Positions 13,860 through 62,736 of a DNA stretch of 64,000 bases are shown here, piece by piece (the stretch's first letter is position 1; every line of letters starts with the position of its first letter). The position numbers were made by a program, and so were the translations under genes. The DNA lies in IMG/VR virus record IMGVR_UViG_3300031867_000006, positions 32,001-96,000 of that record; one strand, 5' to 3'. This stretch comes from a virus (Duplodnaviria; Caudoviricetes). Below the pieces are notes generated by a model. It saw nothing but the letters and a program-made list of their open reading frames with translations, was not told the origin of the DNA and made no database searches.

Positions 13860-14151
13860 TGTTATCCTCTTCTTCAGGTGCCGCTAAGCACCTAAATACA
13901 TTAACGTTGCCTATAATGAGTTCTACAAATCTAAATATAAAGAAATCACTCTCATGTAAAACAACAGGTTTATAACCTTCCTTATAATAGATAGTATCAT
14001 TATCTGCTGTAACGTATACATTATCATAGTCTATTGGCTTAAATTTTTCTAAAATTTTAGCACTTCCTATTATTGTGAAGGATTCATAAGCCTTTTCAAA
14101 TATTTTTACTTTCTGGCTTACAAATCCATATAGTTGTGAGAATTCAATCAT
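13843..14151 (-). CDS. Hypothetical protein
   Basis: 102 aa, GGAGG RBS. Confidence 0.7.
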   Translation of the reverse strand: MIEFSQLYGFVSQKVKIFEKAYESFTIIGSAKILEKFKPIDYDNVYVTADNDTIYYKEGYKPVVLHESDFFIFRFVELIIGNVNVFRCLAAPEEEDNNGGEK

Positions 14152-25200: not shown

Positions 25201-27733
25201 TATTCTTATCGCCATCTTGGTCAGTGCCTTCAATTTCAGTTCTGTAGAATATTTCATATATATTTTTATCAGCAGCATAAATAAGATCTGTCATAGCAGT
25301 GGTCATACCACCAGCTACAGCAGCTGTAATAGAACCATATTTATTAAGAGCTCCAGATATCTTAGTAAAGATATTTTTCTCTTCCGGAGTTTCTAATTCA
25401 TTGGTTTCTTTCTCAGCCTTCTTAGCCTCACGTTCAATATCATCTCTTGTAATAAACTTACCACCGTAAAGCTTTTCGTTAAGAGCTTTGCTTAATGCAT
25501 TGCTATTAACTTTATTCTTCATATCACGGTTATAAGTATCTGTATTTACATCGATAAGAAGATCTGCTAAGTGCTGAAGTGCTTCTGTATCTTCATCACT
25601 AAATCTGGAGAAATCAACAGCCTTACCTTCGAGGATATTCTTTATAGCTTTACGTTTGATCTCTTCATCTTTATTCTGTCTATCAGCAACACTAGTCTGA
25701 GGTTTATTAGGATTAGTAAGACTAATATTCTTAAAGTCTACTTTAACAGCATTATCTGCAACTGTACCACCAGTACCAGCAACAACTCCGCCGTTAACTC
25801 TAGCCCAGATAAGTTCCTTATTAATATTCTGAAGATAATTAAATAAGGAATTGCCATACTCATCCTTAATCTGAAGTAATGGAGAAGAACCTTCCCATTT
25901 CTCAGATTTAGAATCGCCTATTTTAGTCCACTTTCCAGCAGCTCTATCAGATTTAGATGTAGATTCATCCTGGAAGATAGTTGTTATAGTATCCGTAACT
26001 CCAGAATTAATACTGTCTATAATCCTCTGCTCCTGAGCTTTTGAATCAAGAACCTGACGAGAATTCATAAGCTTAGAATAGTCAGTAACTACATTACCAC
26101 GTCTATCTCTACGCTTAGCAGAATTCTTATAGATATCAGCAATCTCTTTATAATGCCTATAGAATGCCGGATATTCAGCATAGCTAACATCATTCTTTGT
26201 AGGCGTTGCATTAGGATTAAATATACCATTGTTATTATAGAGATACATCTGGAACTCAAGCATAGCCTGATTGATCTCATCAATTTCAGCCTGAGACTGT
26301 GCTCCTGCCTTACGTATATTTAATCCAGTTGTCATGTTAGCTTTAACATCAGCTGTAGCAGACTGAATAGCATTATTCTTAATATCATCATATCTTCTTC
26401 TTATAGCTCTAGCATCAGTAAATTTACCAGAGTTATAATCAAAGATTCGTTCAGGATTACTACTTAATACAGACTCAATCCTTCTCAAATATGCGGGGAT
26501 AACTTCAATGATAGCTTTACGAGTAATACCATCAAATGGGATTGGTCCCTTCTCATATTTAGAAGTATCTATAGATCTACTTACATTGGTATTTATACCA
26601 AATATCTTGGCTACCATCTCAAGAGGACCGCCTTTGCCGATCTGATTTCCAAGTGAACCTATAGCAGTAGCAAATGCGTTAGATATCGTTCCATTAAGTT
26701 CTTTAGTGGCTTCTTTAAGTGTAGCAGGAATAGCTGCTTTAACCATGAAATCGGTAATGAATCTTAATGGCGATGTCATCATAGCCATAAGCATATTGGA
26801 ATCTCCGCCCATTCCAGGCATAAGTGATTCCATTTCTTTATTGATATTAGTCTTTATATTCTTAAAGTAATTATCAATGTCAGGCATACCAGAACTGGAG
26901 ATTTCACTCCATTTCATAATACCTCTAGATTTCTGGTTTTTCTGAGCAGATTGCTTTTCTTTCTCCGCAGCAGACGTATACTGCTGCTTCTGAAGTTCTA
27001 GCATTTCCTTAAGTATAGAGTTGCGTTCTGTATCTAATTTAATAGATTCAGTAAAGTAACTGCTCATATTCTTATCCATATTTCCCAAGCTTGTCGCTAA
27101 AAGATTATGGATTGTTCCCATGGTAGAATTTACTACGGAGATATCATTATGAATGCCTCCGATGAGACGTTCATTCTGATTGTAAATCATACCAACGGAA
27201 GTTCTCATATTCTTAATCTGAGCATCTGATGCAGTCATTACAGCATTAACTGTAGCACCAGCGACAGCCTTATTAGATCCTTCTATAGCACTTGCTATAA
27301 TCTTATCTCCGGCTGTGACCTCTGATTTAGAACCTTGAGTGGATGTATCTTTAGATTTGCCATTAATAATGTCTTCCCAGTTGTCATCAATCCCGAACTC
27401 AGAAAGATCATTCATATCGTCGGCATCAATTCCAAGGAATTTACCAGCTTCTGCTTCGCGCTCTTTATTATAGAATTTACCAGTCTTCAAATCCTGGATA
27501 GCATTCTTCAAGCCATAATCAGCAGCTTGATAAATCTTAGAGTTCTTTACATAACCAATTGATCTGGTTATTGTAGTCGTAGGATGTCTAACTGCTTTAT
27601 ATACATTGACAAACGCATCCTTATTAGACGCAGCAAAATCTATCATTTCAGGAGCATCTTGCTTTGCAGTATCTACTGCACTATAAGCAATGGATTTCAT
27701 TACATTTTTCATGTAGTTATTACGAAGCGCCAC
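16262..27733 (-). CDS. Giant tape-measure-like virion protein with C-terminal peptidase C39-like, 3D/DPBB-like and NlpC/P60 domains
   Basis: About 3820 aa (probable GTG start 27733 after GGAGG). Long Gly/Ala/Lys helical body with glycine-zipper segments. Motifs QTIGDSACGP...PHYVTVTG...VQDP; GRYTIACTTTFGQVGD...IIADIK; NDCTGL...KGDIISRNGHAEIF. Confidence 0.75.
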   Translation of the reverse strand: MALRNNYMKNVMKSIAYSAVDTAKQDAPEMIDFAASNKDAFVNVYKAVRHPTTTITRSIGYVKNSKIYQAADYGLKNAIQDLKTGKFYNKEREAEAGKFLGIDADDMNDLSEFGIDDNWEDIINGKSKDTSTQGSKSEVTAGDKIIASAIEGSNKAVAGATVNAVMTASDAQIKNMRTSVGMIYNQNERLIGGIHNDISVVNSTMGTIHNLLATSLGNMDKNMSSYFTESIKLDTERNSILKEMLELQKQQYTSAAEKEKQSAQKNQKSRGIMKWSEISSSGMPDIDNYFKNIKTNINKEMESLMPGMGGDSNMLMAMMTSPLRFITDFMVKAAIPATLKEATKELNGTISNAFATAIGSLGNQIGKGGPLEMVAKIFGINTNVSRSIDTSKYEKGPIPFDGITRKAIIEVIPAYLRRIESVLSSNPERIFDYNSGKFTDARAIRRRYDDIKNNAIQSATADVKANMTTGLNIRKAGAQSQAEIDEINQAMLEFQMYLYNNNGIFNPNATPTKNDVSYAEYPAFYRHYKEIADIYKNSAKRRDRRGNVVTDYSKLMNSRQVLDSKAQEQRIIDSINSGVTDTITTIFQDESTSKSDRAAGKWTKIGDSKSEKWEGSSPLLQIKDEYGNSLFNYLQNINKELIWARVNGGVVAGTGGTVADNAVKVDFKNISLTNPNKPQTSVADRQNKDEEIKRKAIKNILEGKAVDFSRFSDEDTEALQHLADLLIDVNTDTYNRDMKNKVNSNALSKALNEKLYGGKFITRDDIEREAKKAEKETNELETPEEKNIFTKISGALNKYGSITAAVAGGMTTAMTDLIYAADKNIYEIFYRTEIEGTDQDGDKNKYSGFMEMLIGKTNDLFTKAGDYLKDTIFDPLKEKLGLGDDFKDRFTESLKDQFIGLGKMFVNANKEVYGPVYDKYIKEPMNAATIRSNNRAAMERMTAKGWQQGLTKSGELGWVKKNDALATKEKRDERLSVLYSPNKAYASRDYRKMLAMTPEELEEECRKLGVSDTKIDELRMAASRGGYDENKHKNMLITRIERVNVQQHAKGTFKAPFKGITMLSKGEQLYGVNGDGSPNVLDYRGTVPKTGAYGLGDYTHIYNPKGLVGKQQDLGREELMAKRMGLSVAKHAGGSIDISNGDVTVKDFLKEAKQYAPEALAGGATGGALGMVVGGPLFGAALGAGVNIIRNSTFLKDKLFGKLGEDGKSRSGGIISKDLQDTFKKYFPDMVKYGLAGIIPGMLTPLGPIGGLLVGGTIGLLKNNETFMQKYFGEGGSLKLSSKETDILKQLLPGAAKGAAGGAIAGLVFGGPFGLVGNMAIGAGLGMMTTTDEFKDMILGIDVNGVREGGLVGFLSDAFEPLTKSALSFKDDLMNTIEKNIILPLNKFTVPAIHALPKALGSIPRKITEWAESDEGLAGTLSRSILGVTKAATAPARAGLWLGKKAFNIATSPLKLFGVAGDRIRGKAIERGEADYMTAAERIEWQMNNKRGNKVSDFDRMLANIGGSAEGDLSLEDAKDMVRKLEDISDNNASLTRESNRRRKEIDSILNNYRDGNGNKLSGAALKQIRKHLDAGEIDKIPAVLQKYRTSGSSTGISEKELESLMEGDTGLQSKLKGYVDIRERKARAGKLTEGELAETRAELEDTFKNMGLKVNLGSRYDISKLVKNFNTEITNREAGNQVDQSMQLKTPENVADIKGFVSDIATKGIKIADGEDGGLQDIVNKMSAKFDESLEKVNEKYDAIYQKRIDKWFGSDDRQLTDEFKDHLTRSTGFHTDDITNIPGKIGIHGVSADFKYKGKLGKARNLIGTGIDDVRRIAMSPLTAGTAAIRFGANAIAAVHGERKLGRDINKAIRNGETRANLSDNLAEINQFAKFKMRFDSDAHNYIHNELTEKEIKTIYSIFSDYKYISHYFAARSAKGRGKLVNKDELAYLLTLNMFNLNDLNAKCKEIVKAKLWTTYDSIQGVDKISPVERQNLKTGLTQNADTEEIESNGIGTFLLGAAAKGIGAIGKGILGAGKSLLGGAKKAKALKDMLPFGQKEEAGSAGGGSSVLGGDLDDKGDGKMPIINADGEAMIFKKSNDGSIDPDTTDPKTKAIVTAKKLKDAAAEKLHTAQQKMSDRFNSMFDNMDEEGKGTKLNPLAMLFGGYLLWKSGILKKIYDGFIKPIWEKVLHPWITEKVVPWITGTAIPAIGTALVNIGSSIKEALFGDKSLGDIIHDAIFGSGDGDKDGGPSNGPGGAAGAALTVMDNVTGNKTNVGFKNKYSTNRLQELVEKYGADTLSGMYDENGNQLTYGQIANGQYSKIYNVDGTEGYIDKDGNLAFKDPSFKGSSYAKVTANGMAHAAAVGGSPLVTQVSKFSGKLLKSKSVLGKAGGVIGKAITTPLEAAGDIGKGIGRKAAGETFFENGSKGATVVNRIKGAKDAVKKSVGDFVKKGEFINSADDATRALMEGAGGGLSKSDKVASVVAKMKDALVKGLDNLFNSPIVQNRLAKAAKAVGENAMKYAAKLKKQVSETFLKAIGRGSAEAGEALLKNAASKLNLIVTVAFLIADFVTGCDQAESILGVSDTNLLEELGCGLVNALANLLIIPAVIPGVPWICSNLFKLMGDDLEERQKEADAEYQAYLEKTGSTDTKEEYLKKKHSVTGRIGGAIKSGVKKAGKAIKAGAKALGSNIKKAGAFAVDKAKELGSNAINLAKNAGTAVKEGVTKAVNKAVDYGKYIAEQEQKGEALIKDPNSSLTDFLKIDAAPEGPLSGMAHTAAFGARIMSFPIMLVKRIANEIKKFAGKVVDGVKGSFNSLLTNAGNVKDKMMSGDPIGILTSNYEAGENDPLSGINTALYHFTKIYSVPIAAISWAGHKVSDAVKSIVSKAKAGFESLGSNIPAVKEKAAAGDIKGLWSAEFTPTEGDPMAGLNKGLFTIYKLTQVPGAGLHWIGGKISSAFTSAMDKSRTNANAVNNAQESINKAADNVKSMNDIKSIWDVKADLTDGDPIKGVWSMSLGLSKIGGSIKGIFNMIIEPMLNFIDDVKDKIGDFVDGAKDLADGVSDWVGDKADKASKAYDSAKTSAGNWLNDKWQAAKKFVTGTGTYGRGYSKQIDSSIANLPYNSSADRSRQTIGDSACGPAAAVNVLESFGRGKNPIVAASNYAVSRGYKETDGGTKPGFFTDYFSKNGLGSEISYNRNTLEKNINSGMPTVLMGSDGRGTSSSTPFGKSPHYVTVTGTVGNKSIVQDPESPYDNQLYDTRSLLNKTSLGVSAYGRGSGIIPIYGIGKYGTGPTTINIPAGLGGVHSYMGWQCITSPSSAQYKLRAAKGQNFNSEGFGIIDGRYTIACTTTFGQVGDAVDFYKANGKVLKCIIADIKNPTDKGCNTWGHLDGKCIVEFVVDKRTWYSSSKGGAAASMHANPGTASCHPEWGNTTITKAVCYGSANAPAGDAGSAASTGADTGVVNGAAASIDTTTQQPDDPLSAFTNALTKTMSESKIGKAMGLMSSSSSTTTTTTGDSGGDAGSPYQSGGAASGDMSSWISTIETVKKAIAANNPTYQAPMMSTITINGEKLKYRNDCTGLTSAAAMAAGAMETGIWPPASGAWTSGSGISLKGFTKMGWPGWEGLQKGDIISRNGHAEIFSHNEGGRHMVWNGGSTNALRTPGVSGSSHPSYTTIWRRNSEPLTSPFGKGDNGIKPLSKYGQLQDSYKYGRGGQTLNYIPAKKTASSKESSLYYEDPKGTDKPRYGKGSDIDLTQIINFLMTIADNTDKLNTIVKILNKKLNVEITAEDVANAQSGQSTKRQITGKGTSTYDKYTDQLNDQSLASVVNAMKAIAAE

Positions 27734-39347: not shown

Positions 39348-39369
39348 TCAAATATCTTAAATTCACAAG

Positions 39370-39535
39370 GCGATGAATTGTTGGTTAAGTAGCGCTACAT
39401 ACAGGACTGGATCTGCAGAATACTATGATAATCAATACAAATTACAAATGTTTTGTTTAATAAATCCTGGATCTAATAATTTGGCTGGTAGAGAAATGGC
39501 TAATAATTTCCATAATGATGGAATATATTACGGCG
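39370..39535 (+). repeat. Solo variable-region cassette A
   Basis: GCGATGAATTGTTGGTTAAGT...TATTACGGCG; encodes AMNCWLSSA...GIYYG; 163 bp GCG to GCG; no RBS. Confidence 0.8.
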
Positions 39536-39542
39536 CGTAAAA

Positions 39543-39575: not shown

Positions 39576-42119
39576 TTATTTTTTGATTGTGCCTTTAGAT
39601 TTAGCTTTCTCTTTTACACACTTATAGATGGTGGATTCATCTATTTTATCATTCTTGGCAATATAATAAGCCAGAAGCTTAAGAGCAATGTCTCTAGTAT
39701 CAAACGTAACAACCCATTGCTTTTTATTCTTAACTTTCTTGACTTTACCATACCATGTAACTTTACCCTTGTTTTTACCAGAGGTTCGTTTAAGCTTATA
39801 CTCTTTCTTAGCAGCCTCAACCCATGTTTTGATTTTACCACCATTGTTCTTGATAGTAACCTTAATGGATTTACCAACTTTAAGAGCTGCATTATATCCA
39901 GCACCATTATCAACAGTAGGAGATGAAGTATTCTTCTTATACTTCTTCCACTGCGTCTTCTGCGGATGAGCTTCTGTAGGATAAGTAGTGCTATCGCATC
40001 CACTTGTAGCAACCATGTAATCTTCTTTACAGTATCTACAAAGCATTACATATGGTATAGATCTAGATTCATCAAGCTTCTCTATCTTACCAACAGTATT
40101 ACATGATGGACAACCATATTTATAGTAATCTTTAGAAGATATTATTTTTGCAGGTCCGGCTGCTTTGATTTCTTTCTTGGCGCCATCGCCAGCTACAAAA
40201 CCACCATAGATAAATACTTTTCTAATTACCCATACATTTACAGTATAACCATAATTTAAGAAGTGGGTAAGTCCCTTAATGAATTTCTTAGCATCGTCAA
40301 TCTTCTTAAACATTTTAGCATCTGTAACGATATTAGATAACTCGATAACATCAGAATTCTCACCAACAAAGAGTATCTTACCATTATCCTTATGATTGGT
40401 AGTAATTACATAACGTGTATACAGCTTATAGCAGGACTCTAAATCTTTAAGATTAATCTGCTTATTATTTTTATCGTCCTTAATGGTGAGATCTGCAAAA
40501 TCATCATAATCTTCTAACTCTTCTGTTGTCTGACCTTCATCAGCATCTTCTTCAAGAACTAATGTCTGACCATCATCGGCAACAACATATCCAGCCGGAA
40601 TAACCCATATTGTACAGAAGGCATTATAAGATACGCCAGCGTAATAGTAAGTTGCTTGTAATCTAGCGCGACCCTCTGCTTTACCATAAACCATACCATC
40701 AGAATCTACTGTAAATATATTAGTATCTTGAGAAGTATAATACATTGTACCATATGCGACTGCTGTACCATAAGGCTGAATCTCTATGTTAGGATATTCA
40801 CTATCTCCAACATTGATAACAAATACTGATTCGTCAAATGCGATACCAGTGACAGTATCATCATTTAAGTATTTATTACTATCGTCAACTTCGGAATTAT
40901 CATCTAAATCGTCTTCAGAAGATCCAGTCTCATAACTTGCTTGTACTCCAGTCACATAGCATTCATCAAACTTAGTAGCATCAGATACAGATATACACTT
41001 TATAATCGCATTTCCTGGAGATAAACATGTCACATAACCATTTTCATCAACGGAGAAGCATTCTCCATTAGTATCATCACAATCACAATCCCATGTAACA
41101 CCCTCTTTAGAAGCTATGTATGGACTAATACTATAATTTAACCCTACTGTTGAACCTACAGTGATGAGTAGATTATGACTCTTTAATGTAACAGAAGATA
41201 CAGCAATCTCATCGCCATCTGTAACGTCCTCAGGAATAACTATAGATTCTGAAACAACCTGAGCGGTGGCTGAGAATGTAGCGTCAATTTCTTCTGGATT
41301 ATCCTTCTTATATCTAGTATGAACTACAGTAATTGTAGCCTCACCAATGCCTTGCAGAGTAAGAACACCATGGTTATCTACTAATGCAACTCCAGTATTC
41401 GATGAAGTATACGTTAAGTTAGGTTCTTCATTAGCCGTAGATGGGAAATACTTAAGTTTAGTATATATAGTAGAACCTTGCTTACCTTGATAGATGCTAT
41501 CATTAAATTGCATGCCTGTAATATTAATGATTGTCTCGCCAGTATCAGGCGTAGTAGGCTCCTGATCATTTATAACAATCGTAGAGAAGCACTGCACTGA
41601 CTCATTATATACCGATGCAGATAATACAGCTCTACCAGCGCTTATAGGATAAATATTACCATAAGCATCAACCTTAAAGATTGTAGTATTCGACGACTTG
41701 TATTTAACCTTAGGATAATTAACCAATCCATCAGGCTTAAAACCTAATACAGTCGGAAATGAGCTAGTATTTATAGGAATAGTATATGAATCAGACTCAA
41801 AAAATAACTGCTCAACGAGCTGTCTCTCATCATCCGCTCCAGTAACTAATATGGTAGTAGTACCCTCTATAAGATCATCACCAGAATAAGCTGTTATTTT
41901 AATAACAGCAGTACCATAGTTCTTACACTTAATAGAGACTATACCATTATCTATACTATCTACTGAAGCAATAAGATCATCTGATGATGAAAACTGAAAA
42001 TTAGCATTGCTGTCAGTCAAATCAGATGGTAGCAATATCAAATTAGCTTGTATGGTAGAACCCTGAGCAGATGAGTAAGAAGTCTTCTCAAACTGAATAG
42101 AAGTATATTTTCTAGCCAT
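39576..42119 (-). CDS. Bacterial Ig-like (Big_2) repeat virion protein with Zn ribbon and Lys-rich tail
   Basis: About five repeats of the type YxSSNTxVAxVDxxGxxxxxxxGxAxIT; CPSC...CRYC; late promoter 42149-42160. Confidence 0.8.
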   Translation of the reverse strand: MARKYTSIQFEKTSYSSAQGSTIQANLILLPSDLTDSNANFQFSSSDDLIASVDSIDNGIVSIKCKNYGTAVIKITAYSGDDLIEGTTTILVTGADDERQLVEQLFFESDSYTIPINTSSFPTVLGFKPDGLVNYPKVKYKSSNTTIFKVDAYGNIYPISAGRAVLSASVYNESVQCFSTIVINDQEPTTPDTGETIINITGMQFNDSIYQGKQGSTIYTKLKYFPSTANEEPNLTYTSSNTGVALVDNHGVLTLQGIGEATITVVHTRYKKDNPEEIDATFSATAQVVSESIVIPEDVTDGDEIAVSSVTLKSHNLLITVGSTVGLNYSISPYIASKEGVTWDCDCDDTNGECFSVDENGYVTCLSPGNAIIKCISVSDATKFDECYVTGVQASYETGSSEDDLDDNSEVDDSNKYLNDDTVTGIAFDESVFVINVGDSEYPNIEIQPYGTAVAYGTMYYTSQDTNIFTVDSDGMVYGKAEGRARLQATYYYAGVSYNAFCTIWVIPAGYVVADDGQTLVLEEDADEGQTTEELEDYDDFADLTIKDDKNNKQINLKDLESCYKLYTRYVITTNHKDNGKILFVGENSDVIELSNIVTDAKMFKKIDDAKKFIKGLTHFLNYGYTVNVWVIRKVFIYGGFVAGDGAKKEIKAAGPAKIISSKDYYKYGCPSCNTVGKIEKLDESRSIPYVMLCRYCKEDYMVATSGCDSTTYPTEAHPQKTQWKKYKKNTSSPTVDNGAGYNAALKVGKSIKVTIKNNGGKIKTWVEAAKKEYKLKRTSGKNKGKVTWYGKVKKVKNKKQWVVTFDTRDIALKLLAYYIAKNDKIDESTIYKCVKEKAKSKGTIKK

Positions 42120-42186
42120 TGCTGAATTCCTCCTTCTTTGTAATCAATTACATCAATGTCCTCCAAATAAATAATTGCCATATCTG

Positions 42187-42346
42187 GCGATGAGTTGGTG
42201 GTTTAGAGGGGCTACAAAAACTCTTACTAATTATAATCCACTTAATGGTTTCTTTGGAGTAGAAAATTGTAAGAATATTAATAATGCTGATTATGCTTGG
42301 GCTGCATATGATCCTAATAATGGTAATAAAATAATGAATAACGGCG
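42187..42346 (+). repeat. Solo variable-region cassette B
   Basis: GCGATGAGTTGGTGGTTTAGA...AATAACGGCG; encodes AMSWWFRGA...IMNNG; 157 bp GCG to GCG. Confidence 0.8.
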
Positions 42347-42425
42347 CTTATATAATCTCAAAACATAATATTAATGATCATCGGTCATAATAAACTATCA
42401 AATACTATATAAGGAGGTATTAGCA

Positions 42426-45848: not shown

Positions 45849-46047
45849 TTTAACCACCTCCTAAAATATTATTGGTTATTGCTACAACTTTATAATATAT
45901 AATTCAAAAACTTTAGTTGTCCTATTTATATATAAATATTCGACTCCAATACATATGCATCTAATGAAAACACTCATTGCAAACAATATGAATGGTATGC
46001 AACGCTCTACAAAAAAAGAATCCCTAGACCAAAGCCTAGGGTTCTTA

Positions 46048-58218: not shown

Positions 58219-60197
58219 ATGGCTAATAAACGATTTAATATAAGCCAATTGGATCAGAAAAGGTTCATTAAAGTTAATGATAGCACATTAGAAGTTACTA
58301 ATCCTGCCATGTTTAACGCTACGAATGGACCAACGCCAGATGGCTTATTAAGTAATACAATATTTGGTATCACCAAAGCTGAGCGTTCTGGTATATATGG
58401 ATATATAGATCTTAAGGAGAAGTTTATCAATCCTTACTTCTATAAGATATGGCTTAAAATAGATAATAAAGTACGTGGATTAATCTATGAAACAGAAACC
58501 TTCTCTATAGATAAGCATGGCTATCTTGTTCAAGATGATAATGGTCAGACCGGTATAAAGTTTATCGAAAAGAATATTCAGGACTTTAAGTTTAAAGATA
58601 CAAAGCAGAAGCACTTTGTGGAAGCTCTCATGAAGGGCGCTAAAGATGGCTTATTCTTTACAGATAAGCTTATTATTATCCCTCCATTCTATAGAGATGT
58701 AGATACATCTGGAGGTGGTCGTATAGGTGTTGGTGAAGTTAATAAGCTATATATTAACGTTCTTAATAAGGTTAAAGCATTGCAAGATGCTAGCGATTAT
58801 GGATTCGATATCAAGGGTGGTATCAGAGGACAAATCCAGGATATTCTATTAGAGTTATATAACTGGTTTACTCTTGGTGAGACTACTATAGGTGGTGAGC
58901 ATACTGGCTCTGGCATATTTAAGAAATTTGGTAGTATGCGAAGATCTGTAATGGCTAAGACTGCAGATTATAGTAATAGATTAGTACTCTCTGCAGCGGA
59001 TACTAATGTAAATAGCAAAGAAGAACTAATGGTAGATTTAGACTATTCTGCTATACCATTAGCATCTGCTTTATCTGTTGCATATCCATTTGTGGTTTAT
59101 AATCTAAGACAGTGGTTTAATAATGAGTTTGGTGGAAAGACTCATTATGACTATATTGATAAAGATGGTAAACCTCAGCAGGTTGAATTAGATAATATCC
59201 TTATTGAATTCTCTGATGATAGAATCGATAAGGAGATTAATGAGTTCATTCATGGATACTCTAATAGATTTAAACCTATAGAAGTGCCCAATAAGGAAGG
59301 TAAGAAGATTTATGTACGCTTTAAGGGTTATTCTATTACTAGAGAGGAATACGCTAAAGGCGTAAGAGAGAATGATACTCTTATAGACAGAGATATAACC
59401 TGGTGCGATTTATTTTATATAGCCGCGTGTGAAGCAACTAAAGATAAATATGCTATTATAACAAGATATCCCATAAGTATGAATTGTGGCATCACATTGG
59501 AAACAGTGTGTTGAAAAATCCATTGAATTGCTGGGAAAGGCTAAAGCTTAGATTCCTATAACGGTGAAGAAATTCAGAAACAATATCTAAGATTGATTAA
59601 TGATGAAATACAAGCCTATATTTAGGTTCTACAATCAATTAATGTCTAATCAGCATCCAGAAATACTGGTTCAACGACTAACCCTGGAATGGGTGTAGGG
59701 CTATTCAATAGTTCGAAGTGATGGAGACCTAAGTCTTATATAGATATGGTCGTGATATAGTCTAATCTTTATGTAACTCATAAAGCTGAATCTTATAATG
59801 AGATTCATACTTCAATAATTTATATAGCAAGGTTCATATATCTTCTACAAATAAGACAGAGCCTGTTGTTATAGATGGCGAATTCTATCAGTGGTATCCA
59901 ATGATACGTCAGAATGATATTGGTGAGAATACATCTAATAGATTTGTAGATACTTGCAATATCTGCAATCTATACTGTAAAGGCATGGGTGCCGATTACG
60001 ATGGTGACACGATATCAGATAAGCTTATGTTTACCAATGAAGCTAATGCCGAGCTTGAGAAATATGTAAATTCCAACGCTCAGTTTATAGCCTTAAATGG
60101 TGTAAGCTTAAGATACCCTTCCATGGAGGCAGTCCAAGCTATATATAACCTTACACTTACATTAGATCAGAATCAATTAACAGATCCAAAGTTCTAA
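58219..60197 (+). CDS. rpoC: Multisubunit RNA polymerase beta'-like subunit, spliced: join(58219..59474,59801..60197), 550 aa
   Basis: GLLSNTIFG, GYIDL..NP, IIIPPFYRD, KTADYSNRLVL, spliced TRYPIDSYFN, catalytic GADYDGD; late promoter 58183-58194. Confidence 0.88.
59475..59800 (+). ncRNA. Group I intron (326 nt, no homing endonuclease)
   Basis: P AATTGCTGGGAA, Q AATCAGCA, R GTTCAACGACTA, S GATATAGTCTA; exon ends in U and intron ends in G; intron 5' AAGTATGAAT is complementary to 3' exon ATTCATACTT (P10). Confidence 0.92.
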
Positions 60198-60204
60198 TAT
60201 TAAT

Positions 60205-60227
60205 ACCCTAGGCTTATAGCCTAGGGT
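60205..60227. terminator. CCCTAGG-family terminator left of the cassette array
   Basis: ACCCTAGGCT-tat-AGCCTAGGGT followed by a T-rich tract. Confidence 0.75.
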
Positions 60228-60252
60228 TATTCTTTTATTTTAGCTTAATACT

Positions 60253-62077
60253 GCGATAACATTGGCTACGGTTTTAAGATCAATGGCATCCTCTTCATCT
60301 CCAGAAGTTTGTATGGTTGGCTGGTTAGATTCTGGTAAAGATAGGCCTTGGTCTGCAGCATTACATGATAATGGTAGTACATTATATAATTACGGCGCGA
60401 TGGAATGGTGGTTAAGGGGAGCTGCTGATCATGGTTTATCAATACCTCCGCATATAACAAATGGAGTATTTACAATGGTATCTAAAGATGCTAGATCTGA
60501 AAGGGTTAATGCTTATACTCAAAGTAATATAACTAATGGAGTTAAATACGGCGATGTATTGGTGGAGTAGAACTAGCACGTACTATCCAGAAGCCCCTAA
60601 TCATTCTGATAATAAAATTAGATTTAATGCTAAAGCTGATGGTGAAGAACATATATGGACAATTCCAGCTTATAGTTGGAATGGTGTTGATGTAGTAATT
60701 GTCGGCGATGAATTGTTGGTGGTTTAGATCAGGATGTTATGTATATATAACTGGAGGTGGTTGGCCAGCTAGGTCTGATAAATCTGCATTCGTTATGTAT
60801 ATGAAAGAAAGGAATCCACCAGTATGGGCTCATTGTGCTAATTTTACATATGTATATGATATTAGTACACCATGTAATTACGGCGATGGAATTGGGATGG
60901 TTATTTAGATCATTTTATGATGTAAGGACACAACCTTCAAATTATTTAAATAAAGATGGAACTGGATATTGTGTATATTGCCAAAGCTATAATAATACTT
61001 CTGGATTAAATTGGATTGCTTATCCTATAAATAAGCCAACTGATAGATATTATTACGGCGATGAGTTGGTGGGAAAGATCTGGCTATAAGCCTGACAAGG
61101 CATCATTTTGTTGTTCAGGATATTATAATACACCTAATGGAACACCTCAAGGTACTAATGCTGCAAAACATAGTGGTACTGGACAATTATTTAATCTCGG
61201 CGATGGAATGGTGGTTGAGGACTTGCCCAAATCATGATATAAATGCTGGTGCTTTAGAAAATAATAAGTCTGTTATAAGTTGCGTTTGGGCGGATGGTAA
61301 GAGTTATTATGCTATACAAGGCGGTAATGGCTATTATGTAAGAAATTTCGGCGATGGATTATTGGGATAGATCTGCTTCATCGAAAATAGTGCAATGTTA
61401 TTAATATTTTCAACAGATGATAGATTTATAAATACAGGTTGGAAAGTTCCGGCATATAAATTCCCTAGTGGTATTGATTGTATTTACGGCGATAATTTGT
61501 TGGTTAAGAAGTGCAGATTATAAAAGTATACCGTGGTATGGCACTCAATATGATAATAAAGATGTGAGTTTTATTTATATTAGCCCAGATGGTTCAGTAA
61601 ATTGTACTGTTGCATGCCATGGATCATCTAGCCCTAGTAATTACGGCGATGTATTGGAGAACAAGAACTAGTTCATCTCAAGCTGGCGATTGGGCTACAG
61701 ATAATAAAAGTTGTTATATGTGTATTAATGGTACTTATGTAATTAAAGCGGTGAATACATATGCTGCAACTAGTGTCGGCGATAACTTGGTGGAATAGAT
61801 CCGCTGCTGGAAACCATTGGAAATATAAAACTATTGGATTTACTGAAACTACTATTGATGGAGTATCAGACTTTAATTATGCGTGGAGATGGGAATCTGC
61901 TGAACCATATCAAATAATATATCACGGCGATGGATTGGTGGACAACTAGTGCTATGTCTGTATATGCTAATATTTATCATAGTGGTAGCACTGGTAAAGA
62001 TTATTGCCCTATAGATAATAAAGGTGAACCATCGTATCAATTTGCTGGTAATTGTGGATATAATATAGATTTCGGCG
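60253..62077 (+). repeat. Tandem array of 12 variable-region cassettes (CLec/DUF6273-like W-W-x-R-S...G segments)
   Basis: CGGCG(AT) at 60393, 60549, 60703, 60881, 61056, 61198, 61349, 61487, 61644, 61777, 61925, 62073; each unit reads A-[MI]-x-W-W-x-R-[STG]...[YFVLH]-G (degenerate in some). Confidence 0.88.
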
Positions 62078-62093
62078 TTTAAAAAAAGAAGCA

Positions 62094-62115
62094 CCCTAGG
62101 CAATTAAGCCTAGGG
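62094..62115. terminator. CCCTAGG-family terminator right of the cassette array
   Basis: CCCTAGGC-aattaa-GCCTAGGG; T-tract on the minus strand. Confidence 0.75.
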
Positions 62116-62148
62116 CAATTATTAATGGAAAACAATAAATATGAATAA

Positions 62149-62736
62149 TTAACCCTCTGCGAGAGTCTCATTACCTTCATTAGTCTGAGCCTGTTTCTCA
62201 GCTTCTGCACGCCTTGCAGCTCTGCGCTCAGCCTTTGTGAGATGTTTAACCTGAGGCTGCTGTTTGGGCTGTTCTGCAGGTTTCTCATCGACCTTCTCTT
62301 CTTCAGCCGAAGTTTCTGCTGACCCTCCTACGCTGGGTAATGCAGGAGCTTCATTAGCATTATCATGCTCAGAATCATCAACCGGCTCTTCAGCAGGTTC
62401 TTCTGCCTTAGGAGGCTCTTCCTTCTTGGGATGTTCTACAGGTACAGCAGCCTGCATGGGGGAGATCTTATCTCTCTCAGCCTTACGCTTTGCTTCTTCT
62501 GCTTTCTTGATCTCTGCTTCCATCTGGCTGTCAGCATTACTCTTATCATAGTTAGTGATATCGAGATTTACTATAGTACCATCCGGCAGGACTTCTTCTA
62601 CCATAGCTCTCCCCATAAGTGCAGCGCGAATCTCCTCGTTGGTCATGCGAGTATTCTTTACAGCGCTCACGATAGGCGGGTTAAACATGGTAAGTGGAGC
62701 CTTCGGGTAAACGTTAACGACTTTTCTTTGTTTCAT
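62149..62736 (-). CDS. Hypothetical protein with a low-complexity C-terminus
   Basis: 195 aa, RBS. Confidence 0.75.
   Translation of the reverse strand: MKQRKVVNVYPKAPLTMFNPPIVSAVKNTRMTNEEIRAALMGRAMVEEVLPDGTIVNLDITNYDKSNADSQMEAEIKKAEEAKRKAERDKISPMQAAVPVEHPKKEEPPKAEEPAEEPVDDSEHDNANEAPALPSVGGSAETSAEEEKVDEKPAEQPKQQPQVKHLTKAERRAARRAEAEKQAQTNEGNETLAEG

What the first reader, a model, noticed from the sequence alone, without database searches (positions are those of the whole stretch)
60380..62077. DGR-type adenine-mutagenesis footprint at every cassette 3' end
Seen: the codon before GGC-G is NNC in all 14 units (TAC x7, GTC x2, TTC x2, CTC, CAC, AAC). The codon before that is NNT in 13 of 14. Third-position C is otherwise uncommon in this AT-rich tract. 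Known: DGR reverse transcriptases mutate template adenines only, turning AAT-AAC into NNT-NNC next to a GC-rich initiation element. Inference: the cassettes descend from DGR products, linking a DGR to a storage array. The variable-length interiors require several templates or long divergence. The fixed C could alternatively be part of a recombination site.
Basis: partly seen in the sequence, partly recalled or inferred. Interest (0 to 1): 0.8.

Follow-up and report, generated by a model that had tools for sequence, protein, structure and literature searches.

The report
Cassette junction word, not DGR scar
The constant C before every GGCG is the first letter of an invariant 8-letter word (CGGCGATG) that separates stored, swappable versions of a phage lectin-type binding loop, and it is not a scar of the phage's mutagenic reverse transcriptase, although that enzyme diversifies the same loop in a sister gene.

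Summary
All 14 units in the window (12 in the array at 60314-62077, plus solos at 39373 and 42190) have NNC before GGCG, and 13 of 14 have NNT before that. The NNC rule holds for 37 of 37 distinct units once three further arrays are included.

The DGR reading of it fails. The C is contiguous with an invariant block, C-GGCG-AT(G). Cassette interiors have only 5-6% third-position C, against 48% in this phage's true DGR variable region. The NNT codon is what codon usage predicts (31 seen, 27.1 expected). No cassette resembles the phage's template repeat. Allelic differences show no adenine bias. Whole cassettes, carrying 45-55 adenines, occur as 100% identical copies elsewhere.

The genome has a complete DGR (RT, TR, VR) 65 kb away. 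The cassettes are the exact equivalent of the VR segment of its target domain, DUF6273, which is C-type-lectin-like. One cassette sits in frame in a paralogous DUF6273 frame, bounded by the same word. Other samples show a cassette deleted, and another inserted, exactly at the word.

Best reading: a silent cassette library, with the word as the exchange boundary. The scan had already noted these arrays elsewhere in this genome.

The parts
60205..60236 (+). Terminator hairpin plus T-run ending the upstream RNA polymerase beta' piece. It lies immediately 5' of the array.
   Evidence: a CCTAGGG-type hairpin that occurs about 20 times in the genome
60314..60397 (+). Unit A0: a short head unit with a degenerate 5' word. 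It ends AAT-TAC-GGCG. The next junction carries 2 extra bases (GGCG-CG-ATG).
60400..60553 (+). Cassette A1 (MEWWLRG...KYG), ending AAA-TAC-GGCG.
60554..60707 (+). Cassette A2 (MYWWSRT...IVG), ending ATT-GTC-GGCG.
60708..60885 (+). Cassette A3, ending AAT-TAC-GGCG.
60886..61060 (+). Cassette A4 (175 nt), ending TAT-TAC-GGCG. It is absent, cut exactly at the word, from a contig of another study.
   Evidence: joint 60876->61052 skipping 175 in run X3
61061..61202 (+). Cassette A5, ending AAT-CTC-GGCG.
61203..61353 (+). Cassette A6, ending AAT-TTC-GGCG. A 156/156-identical copy sits at the head of array C in a relative (L270).
61354..61491 (+). Cassette A7. It is frameshifted (138 nt, with a stop after 16 codons) and ends ATT-TAC-GGCG.
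61492..61648 (+). Cassette A8. Its word reads ATA instead of ATG. It ends AAT-TAC-GGCG.
61649..61781 (+). Cassette A9, ending AGT-GTC-GGCG.
61782..61929 (+). Cassette A10. Its word reads ATA instead of ATG. It ends TAT-CAC-GGCG.
61930..62077 (+). Cassette A11, the last unit. It ends GAT-TTC-GGCG, followed by TT-TAA.
62092..62117 (-). Terminator hairpin of the convergent downstream gene (62149-62736, minus strand). The array therefore lies between two convergent terminators.
39369..39540 (+). Solo cassette s39: GGCG-ATG ... TAT-TAC-GGCG-CG-TAA, in an intergenic gap 3' of the Big_2 fibre-like gene.
42186..42390 (+). Solo cassette s42: GGCG-ATG ... AAT-AAC-GGCG, Asn-rich (12 of 52 residues), in the divergent gap 5' of the same Big_2 gene.

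Best explanation
The fixed C is the first base of an invariant junction word, CGGCGATG. At a cassette's 3' end only CGGCG is required. The word delimits promoterless cassettes of about 130-180 nt.

Each cassette is the equivalent of the variable-region segment (xxWWxR[ST] ... [hydrophobic]-G) of a DUF6273 C-type-lectin-like receptor-binding domain. The word sits in codon phase 2-3-1-2-3 at the cassette's 5' side (xCG GCG ATG) and in phase 3-1-2-3-1 at its 3' side (NNC GGC G). Units that share one word are therefore 3n+1 long. Each frame is knocked out of register with its neighbour, yet every cassette is in frame when placed between two words in an acceptor gene.

Shown:
- The word is invariant, and this holds at the DNA level rather than the protein level.
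- One cassette is embedded in frame, between the two words, in a DUF6273 open frame paralogous to the DGR target.
- That cassette is 100% identical to a member of an array on another contig, with unrelated flanks.
- In other samples a cassette has been inserted, and another deleted, exactly at the word.

Inferred:
- The arrays are a silent donor library.
- Whole cassettes are copied faithfully, without adenine mutagenesis, into the acceptor and between arrays. The agent would be either microhomology-guided gene conversion or an unidentified enzyme that recognises the word.

The two bases before the C vary because that codon encodes a hydrophobic or aromatic residue that differs between cassettes. 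The NNT codon before it is ordinary codon bias.
For: - Sequence logo over 20 internal junctions: positions -1 to +5 are 100% conserved (C GGCG AT) and +6 is 90% G, while -2 and -3 are variable.
- The constraint is on DNA. The last codon is TAC 13/13, GTC 5/5, ATC 5/5, TTC 4/4 and CTC 2/2. Interiors use TAC 5%, GTC 0%, ATC 3%, TTC 14% and CTC 0%. The Gly codon is always GGC, against 10% inside.
- All complete units of arrays A-D have length = 1 mod 3, except A1 and A7.
- The embedded copy lies in a 311-codon DUF6273 frame at genome 13693-14629, minus strand. There the cassette reads GSA-MNWW...NNYNNG-VSPFCAI and aligns with the DGR target's GSA-NYSWSRS...SNSLL-VAPFCVL.
- Composition breaks at the words: the cassette has 30% GC and 6% third-position C, against 45% and 22% in the scaffold.
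- hhalign of the cassette profile against the DUF6273 family gives probability 85.5%, E = 5.7e-6.
- A 153/153-nt identical copy is unit 9 of array D on L271. Identity stops at the words.
- Relative L270 carries own cassette A6 (156/156) inserted at the head of array C, while its flank matches only about 96%.
- A contig in run X3 lacks exactly unit A4.
- Indications that the cassettes are silent: an SD-like motif precedes 1/25 cassette ATGs against 67/92 long ORFs. Array A lies between convergent terminators. Two words read ATA and one unit is frameshifted. Interior codon usage shows no translational selection.
- Published work places the VR of DGR targets at the C-terminus of the C-lec-like DUF6273 domain (PMC10743442, PMC11792537, bioRxiv 10.1101/2024.10.15.618418).
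Against: - The acceptor frame has no proper start. Its first in-frame ATG is at codon 63 and has no SD, so an expressed acceptor is not shown.
- No recombinase of the Tyr or Ser families is found in the 165.8-kb record, which is only 59% complete.
- The homology available at the 3' side is only 5-8 nt, which is short for ordinary homologous recombination.
- There are no RNA data, so silence is inferred rather than measured.
- Whether L271 belongs to the same genome is unknown.
- Array C has a divergent intergenic region upstream and a co-directional gene downstream, so it could be transcribed.
- The hhalign test is partly circular, because the embedded cassette is in both alignments.
Confidence: 0.8

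Rival explanations
1. The NNT-NNC ends are relics of DGR adenine mutagenesis of an AAT-AAC template next to a GC-rich initiation element, so the cassettes are archived DGR products.
For: A complete DGR is in the same genome. The cassettes are homologous to the VR segment of its target domain. In the family alignment, the TR codon homologous to the NNC codon is AAT and is mutated to CTT in the VR. Two Asn-rich cassettes end AAT-AAC. The two bases before the C are the most variable positions in the junction logo.
Against: - The C is contiguous with an invariant 8-mer. It is present at array heads and at the acceptor's 5' word, where no complete cassette lies upstream.
- NNC codons are nearly absent elsewhere in the cassettes (5-6%, against 48% in the true VR).
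- NNT equals the codon-usage expectation, and 6 of 37 ends break it at a non-A position.
- The TR shows no similarity to any cassette (z <= 1.7).
- Interiors differ in length (38-59 codons) and cannot be aligned, which A-substitution cannot produce.
- Allelic C1 differences are not A-biased and include indels.
- Cassette copies are identical at all 55 and 45 adenines. The phage's own DGR changed 17 of 39.
Confidence: 0.04
2. Each unit is an independent, translated mini-gene (M-x-W-W-x-R-S ... Y-G, 45-65 aa). GGCGATG is a conserved start context, and the overlaps provide translational coupling along a polycistronic array.
For: ATG is present in 90% of words. Reading frames are open in nearly all units of AT-rich DNA. 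The two solos have their own ATG and stop. Gene callers predicted many of them as proteins.
Against: - There is no SD-like motif (1/25, against 73% of the phage's long ORFs).
- Two words read ATA and one unit is frameshifted.
- Codon usage lacks the phage's translational bias (TTC 14% against 51%, ATC 3% against 25%).
- The unit is an internal segment of a roughly 170-residue lectin-like domain and would not be expected to fold alone.
- The same unit is found in frame inside a DUF6273 frame, where its ATG codes an internal Met.
- The tails after the Gly are not conserved and are set by the next word read in another frame.
- Array A lies between convergent terminators.
Confidence: 0.08
3. The word marks RNA-mediated transfer. 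Array transcripts are copied by the DGR reverse transcriptase, or another polymerase, in a non-mutagenic mode and homed into the acceptor, so the library is a bank of alternative templates.
For: A DGR RT and an Avd-like ORF are present. The 5' boundary of the cassettes coincides, within 1-2 nt, with the 5' boundary of TR-VR homology. The TR is itself followed by C-GGCG-CT-ATG. No conventional recombinase was found.
Against: Transfers are adenine-faithful, whereas selective infidelity at adenines is the hallmark of DGR RTs (PMC6182149 abstract). The cassettes carry neither an IMH-like 3' homology nor a TR-type flank. The arrays are 65-135 kb from the RT. There is no evidence that the arrays are transcribed.
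Confidence: 0.05

Closest known systems
Diversity-generating retroelements with DUF6273 / C-type-lectin targets (BPP-1 Mtd; gut-phage DUF6273 targets and tentaclins)
   Same: The same protein segment is diversified: the C-terminal variable region of a C-lec-like DUF6273 receptor-binding domain. The same genome carries a working-looking DGR on the paralogous fibre. The cassette's 5' boundary coincides with the TR/VR 5' boundary.
   Different: There is no template-variable pair and no adenine-specific substitution. Variants differ in length and in their whole sequence. They are stored as DNA arrays rather than generated from one template. Copies are exact.
Borrelia vlsE with silent vls cassettes (from my knowledge: 15 cassettes, 17-bp direct repeats); Neisseria pilE/pilS
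   Same: Head-to-tail arrays of promoterless, frame-preserving partial-gene cassettes correspond to the variable part of a surface or binding protein and are flanked by short conserved direct repeats. The evidence points to non-reciprocal copying.
   Different: The host is a virus (a jumbo phage). There are several dispersed arrays plus solos. The boundary word is only 8 nt. Whole-cassette rather than segmental replacement was seen. An expressed acceptor is not demonstrated. The enzymology is unknown.
Invertible tail-fibre segments and shufflons (Mu Gin, P1 Cin, R64 Rci)
   Same: Alternative C-terminal specificity modules for an adhesin are stored next to one another and exchanged at short conserved sites.
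   Different: All cassettes are in direct orientation. No inverted crossover sites and no Ser or Tyr recombinase were found in the record.
Integron gene-cassette arrays
   Same: Promoterless cassettes lie in direct tandem arrays. Single cassettes are gained and lost at a conserved boundary.
   Different: There are no attC-like palindromes and no IntI. The cassettes are fragments of one domain rather than complete genes. The boundary is a fixed 8-mer that lies within coding phase.

Membership tests
DGR variable region / DGR product | A template repeat that matches the region except at adenines | tested here: not met
   TR (genome 26304-26430) against 27 cassettes: local alignment z <= 1.7, against z = 81 for TR-VR. 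Genome self-BLAST finds only the one TR-VR pair.
DGR variable region / DGR product | Adenine-specific variation between copies or alleles | tested here: not met
   C1 against its allele in L270: 25 mismatches, with A at 9 on one side and 8 on the other, plus two 3-nt indels. Cassette copies are 153/153 and 156/156 identical with 55 and 45 adenines.
DGR variable region / DGR product | A DGR-type reverse transcriptase (with accessory gene) in the element | tested here: met
   An RVT_1 ORF of 414 aa at genome 26984-27685, with the TR and an accessory-position ORF beside it. It lies 65 kb from array A, not adjacent.
DGR variable region / DGR product | The region lies in the variable C-terminal part of a C-lec-type target domain | tested here: met
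   The cassette aligns to the VR segment of DUF6273. Papers place DGR VRs at the DUF6273 C-terminus. My AF2 model was too poor to confirm the fold (pLDDT 40).
DGR variable region / DGR product | NNC/NNY codons at many diversified sites | tested here: not met
   Third-position C is 5-6% in cassette interiors, against 48% in the phage's true VR.
Silent-cassette gene-conversion system (vls/pilS type) | Tandem promoterless cassettes homologous to the variable part of one gene | tested here: met
   Four arrays of 12, 6, 6 and 10 units, plus 2 solos. No SD (1/25). Array A lies between convergent terminators. Absence of a promoter is inferred only.
Silent-cassette gene-conversion system (vls/pilS type) | Short direct repeats bounding the cassette in both donor and acceptor | tested here: met
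   CGGCGATG and CGGCG bound the embedded cassette and all array units.
Silent-cassette gene-conversion system (vls/pilS type) | Non-reciprocal copying of donor sequence into the acceptor | tested here: inconclusive
   An identical 153-nt copy exists in array D (L271) and in the acceptor, with unrelated flanks. The direction of copying, and whether both lie in one genome, are unknown.
Silent-cassette gene-conversion system (vls/pilS type) | An expressed, complete acceptor gene | tested here: not met
   The acceptor is a 311-codon open frame. Its first ATG is at codon 63 and has no SD. It is a truncated copy of the fibre's C-terminus.
Site-specific recombination cassettes (integron, shufflon, invertase) | A dedicated Tyr or Ser recombinase and structured or inverted sites | tested here: not met
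   There is no PF00589 or PF00239 match in the 165.8-kb record, which is 59% complete. All words are in direct orientation. Each array has only its two outer terminator-type hairpins and none per cassette.

The most novel reading that the evidence does not exclude
A lytic jumbo phage runs two diversifiers on paralogous lectin-type tips. A DGR point-mutates one. A virus-encoded silent library, analogous to vls/pilS, serves the other: at least 37 distinct cassettes in at least 4 arrays. Whole binding loops are copied into it, adenine-faithfully, at the 8-nt word CGGCGATG by a word-specific activity that is not yet identified.
Probability: 0.4. Interest if true: 0.85.

Novelty: new variant of a known kind. 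Interest (0 to 1): 0.6.

Why it matters
This removes a tempting but wrong mechanistic link. The arrays are not an archive of DGR output. The real link is that the stored cassettes are the same lectin-loop segment that the phage's DGR mutates in a sister gene.

If the library is functional, this phage pairs fine-scale mutagenesis with wholesale loop replacement. Two searches of the held papers found no description of this for a virus. It would be a new route to host-range change. It would also be a compact natural scaffold-and-cassette design with a defined 8-nt boundary that can be tested directly.

Tried and rejected
- Pfam and PHROGs on ten cassette peptides gave nothing significant. The only hit was gp37_C at E = 0.005 for one unit, which I judged to be chance.
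- blastn of the array against 50,697 phage records gave no match.
- IMG/VR pattern scans with the word, with three spaced words, and with AATTACGGCGATGnnnTGG returned only chance hits or 18-mer repeat proteins. None had a 3n+1 array. A 40-mer from the embedded cassette gave no hit.
- The search for related loci with the neighbouring RNAP piece in IMG/VR found none.
- The closest RNAP relatives (62-71% aa identity) were fetched from other collections. They have no array and no word downstream of the RNAP gene, so array A is lineage-specific at this site.
- The acceptor protein has only 5 distant homologues (32-38% identity), so no allelic acceptors could be compared.
- AF2 on the 248-aa frame with a 7-sequence alignment was unusable (pLDDT 40). 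A PDB sequence search found nothing.
- Runs X2-X4 hold only small shares of the stretch. I used only the one joint and the piece coordinates, not habitat or depth. A joint 60571->61192 in the source run X1, with a 25-nt side, was set aside as likely cross-matching between words.
- P0127, a 2240-aa hit of the profile search, is a SpaA-repeat protein and is spurious.
- I considered programmed +1 frameshifting across every junction and stop-codon recoding. Both were rejected: there is no slippery or stalling context, and TAA, TAG and TGA all occur in the run-on frames.

Full report
**What is there.**
The window is genome 32001-96000 of a 165.8-kb, about 59%-complete record of an uncultured jumbo phage. 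The phage has AR9/phiKZ-type split multisubunit RNA polymerase genes, and the run that fully holds this stretch is a bovine gut metagenome. From 60314 to 62077 the plus strand carries 12 head-to-tail units of 84-178 nt. They are joined by GGCG at 60394, 60550, 60704, 60882, 61057, 61199, 61350, 61488, 61645, 61778, 61926 and 62074. A mismatch-tolerant scan for the junction motif found the same motif at two solo units, 39369-39540 and 42186-42390. That scan gave 14 matches against 0.76 expected.

**The observation.**
The codon before GGC is NNC in 14/14 units and the one before that is NNT in 13/14, as stated. A profile built from the units found two more arrays on the minus strand outside the window, at genome 155860->154942 and 162379->161476, with 6 units each. 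A fourth array of 10 units lies on another metagenome contig, L271.

Over 37 distinct unit ends, the last variable codon ends in C 37 times. Only 2.0 are expected from the cassettes' own synonymous usage, since interior third-position C is 5.6%. The penultimate codon ends in T 31 times against 27.1 expected. So the C is a real and extreme anomaly, while the NNT is ordinary codon bias on Asn, Tyr and Ile.

**What the units are.**
Each unit reads M-x-W-W-x-R-[ST] ... [Y/V/I/F]-G over 38-59 codons. Pairwise identity is about 20% and the interiors cannot be aligned. Because the word is GGCG followed directly by ATG, and also supplies the final Gly codon GGC, units are 3n+1 long (all but two) and successive frames are offset by +1.

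A genome-wide search for CGGCGATG gave 22 sites against about 1 expected. Of these, 20 lie in arrays A-C, one lies in an unrelated gene, and one is at genome 13868 on the minus strand. At 13868 a cassette sits in frame inside a 311-codon DUF6273 open frame. It reads ...GEGGSA-MNWWLLSC...NNYNNG-VSPFCAI*, bounded by CGGCGATG and CGGCG.

That frame is 55% identical to the C-terminal domain of the 915-aa Big_3 + DUF6273 fibre. The cassette aligns exactly to the fibre's DGR variable region...GESGSA-NYSWSRS...SNSLL-VAPFCVL*. Distant DUF6273 proteins show the same W-W-E-R-S ... [Y/S/R]-G-V-[AS]-P-F frame. A profile-profile comparison places the cassettes on that segment with probability 85.5% and E = 5.7e-6; this test is partly circular. 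Three papers describe DUF6273 as a C-type-lectin-like DGR target domain with the VR at its C-terminus. The cassettes are therefore VR-equivalents of a lectin-type receptor-binding domain.

The genome does carry a complete DGR: an RT at 26984-27685, a TR at 26304-26430 and a VR at 25333-25459. TR and VR align over 127 nt with 18 mismatches, 17 of them at the TR's 39 adenines. But the cassettes do not behave as DGR products.
- (i) The TR is GC-rich and has no similarity to any cassette (z <= 1.7, against 81 for TR-VR).
- (ii) The true VR has 48% third-position C. Cassette interiors have 5-6%, and AAC makes up only 3% of Asn codons.
- (iii) Cassette interiors differ in length and in their whole sequence.
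- (iv) The one allelic pair available, C1 here against L270, differs at 25 sites with no adenine bias and has two 3-nt indels.
- (v) Two whole-cassette copies are exact despite many adenines (next section).

The footprint reading is therefore rejected. One point in its favour remains. The TR codon homologous to the NNC codon is AAT, mutated to CTT in the VR. So this is a specificity position in the DGR paralog.

**Why the C is fixed.**
In a logo of 20 internal junctions, positions -1 to +5 (C GGCG AT) are invariant and +6 is 90% G. The two bases before the C are among the most variable. The constraint acts on DNA, not protein. Tyr, Val, Ile, Phe and Leu at that site all use their rare C-ending codon, and the Gly is always GGC. 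The C is also present at the first word of arrays B and C and at the acceptor's 5' word (TCG Ser codon), where no complete cassette lies upstream; the two solos lack it at their 5' side.

**Evidence that the word is an exchange boundary.**
- (a) The embedded cassette is compositionally foreign to its scaffold (GC 30% against 45%).
- (b) It is 153/153 identical, words included and with 55 adenines, to unit 9 of array D on L271. The flanks are unrelated from the first base outside the words.
- (c) In an ENA contig, L270, the head of array C has about 96%-identical flanks. There, own cassette A6 (156/156 identical) is inserted exactly at the word. It is followed by a diverged C1 allele and then a cassette absent from this record.
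- (d) A contig from a third study joins 60876 to 61052. It thereby lacks exactly the 175-nt unit A4, with 12 nt shared at the joint.
- (e) The closest relatives by RNAP (62-71% aa identity) have no array at this locus.

**Silent or translated?**
Only 1 of 25 cassette ATGs has an SD-like motif, against 73% of long ORFs. Two words read ATA and one unit is frameshifted. Codon usage lacks the phage's translational bias. Array A lies between convergent terminators. These points favour untranslated donor cassettes whose frames are kept open by use as coding donors; the indels between alleles are multiples of 3.

Several caveats apply. The acceptor frame itself has no credible start. No recombinase was found in the incomplete record. 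No RNA data exist. It is not known whether L271 belongs to the same genome.

**Relation to earlier notes of this scan.**
The arrays outside the window, the DGR and the start-less tip had already been noted. I re-derived each of them here.

**Verdict.**
The C is part of the word CGGCGATG, not a DGR scar. The link to a DGR is homology of the stored segment to the VR of the DGR target's domain, not descent from DGR products.

Noticed in passing
window 59515-59900: The RNA polymerase beta' gene is interrupted. A 431-aa piece ends at 59514 and the ADYDGD-containing piece resumes in another frame around 59860-59900. Many relatives have one 546-553-aa protein. The gap holds a roughly 140-nt repeat (window 59516-59655) with copies at genome 140590-140750, 142404-142543 and 143925-144018, and contig depth there is raised in several runs. 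This may be an intron or a small mobile insert.
   Followed up: partly
window 45912-46014; also genome 158698-158791, genome 13905-13976 and L271:15823-15915: A 72-90-nt stretch is 97-99% identical across four places. One copy is the acceptor frame's coding sequence (EIFGSNTYASNENTHCKQYEWYAT), ending 36 nt upstream of its CGGCGATG word. Three copies lie in intergenic positions, each preceded by the same AT-rich TATTTATATATA motif. There is no Rfam match and no stable fold. Its function is unknown.
   Followed up: partly
L124:6431-6445 (genome 26431-26445, outside the window): The DGR template repeat is immediately followed by GGCG-CT-ATG after a GTC codon. This matches the C-GGCG form seen at the 3' ends of the solo cassettes (one solo shares the following CT). 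The TR-VR homology also starts at CGCG-AAT, in register with the cassettes' GGCG-ATG. This could be coincidence, or a trace of common ancestry between the TR and the cassettes.
   Followed up: no
window 60400-62077 and the other arrays: Cassette interiors are much more AT-skewed at third positions than the phage's long genes. Third-position C is 5% against 14%, TTC is 14% against 51% of Phe codons, and ATC is 3% against 25% of Ile codons. This is as expected for sequence that is not under translational selection.
   Followed up: yes
window 39373-39540 and 42190-42390: The two solo cassettes flank the 847-aa Big_2 (Ig-like) gene at 39576-42119 on the opposite strand. Each has its own stop, and s39 is followed by a hairpin. 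It is unclear why single cassettes sit beside a second fibre-like gene.
   Followed up: no
L270:783-898: The third cassette of the relative's array C (MNWWFRSAGYTHTTDWDHNPY...) has no counterpart in this record or in L271. Library content therefore turns over between close relatives.
   Followed up: partly
genome 13693-13716 and 3' flank (L243:2660-2717, minus strand): The acceptor frame is followed 3 nt after its stop by a small hairpin (CTATG-TTTG-CATAG). The TR is followed by the related palindrome CTATGCATAG. The true VR is followed by a GCAC-GAAA-GTGC hairpin of the kind described downstream of DGR variable regions (from my knowledge).
   Followed up: no
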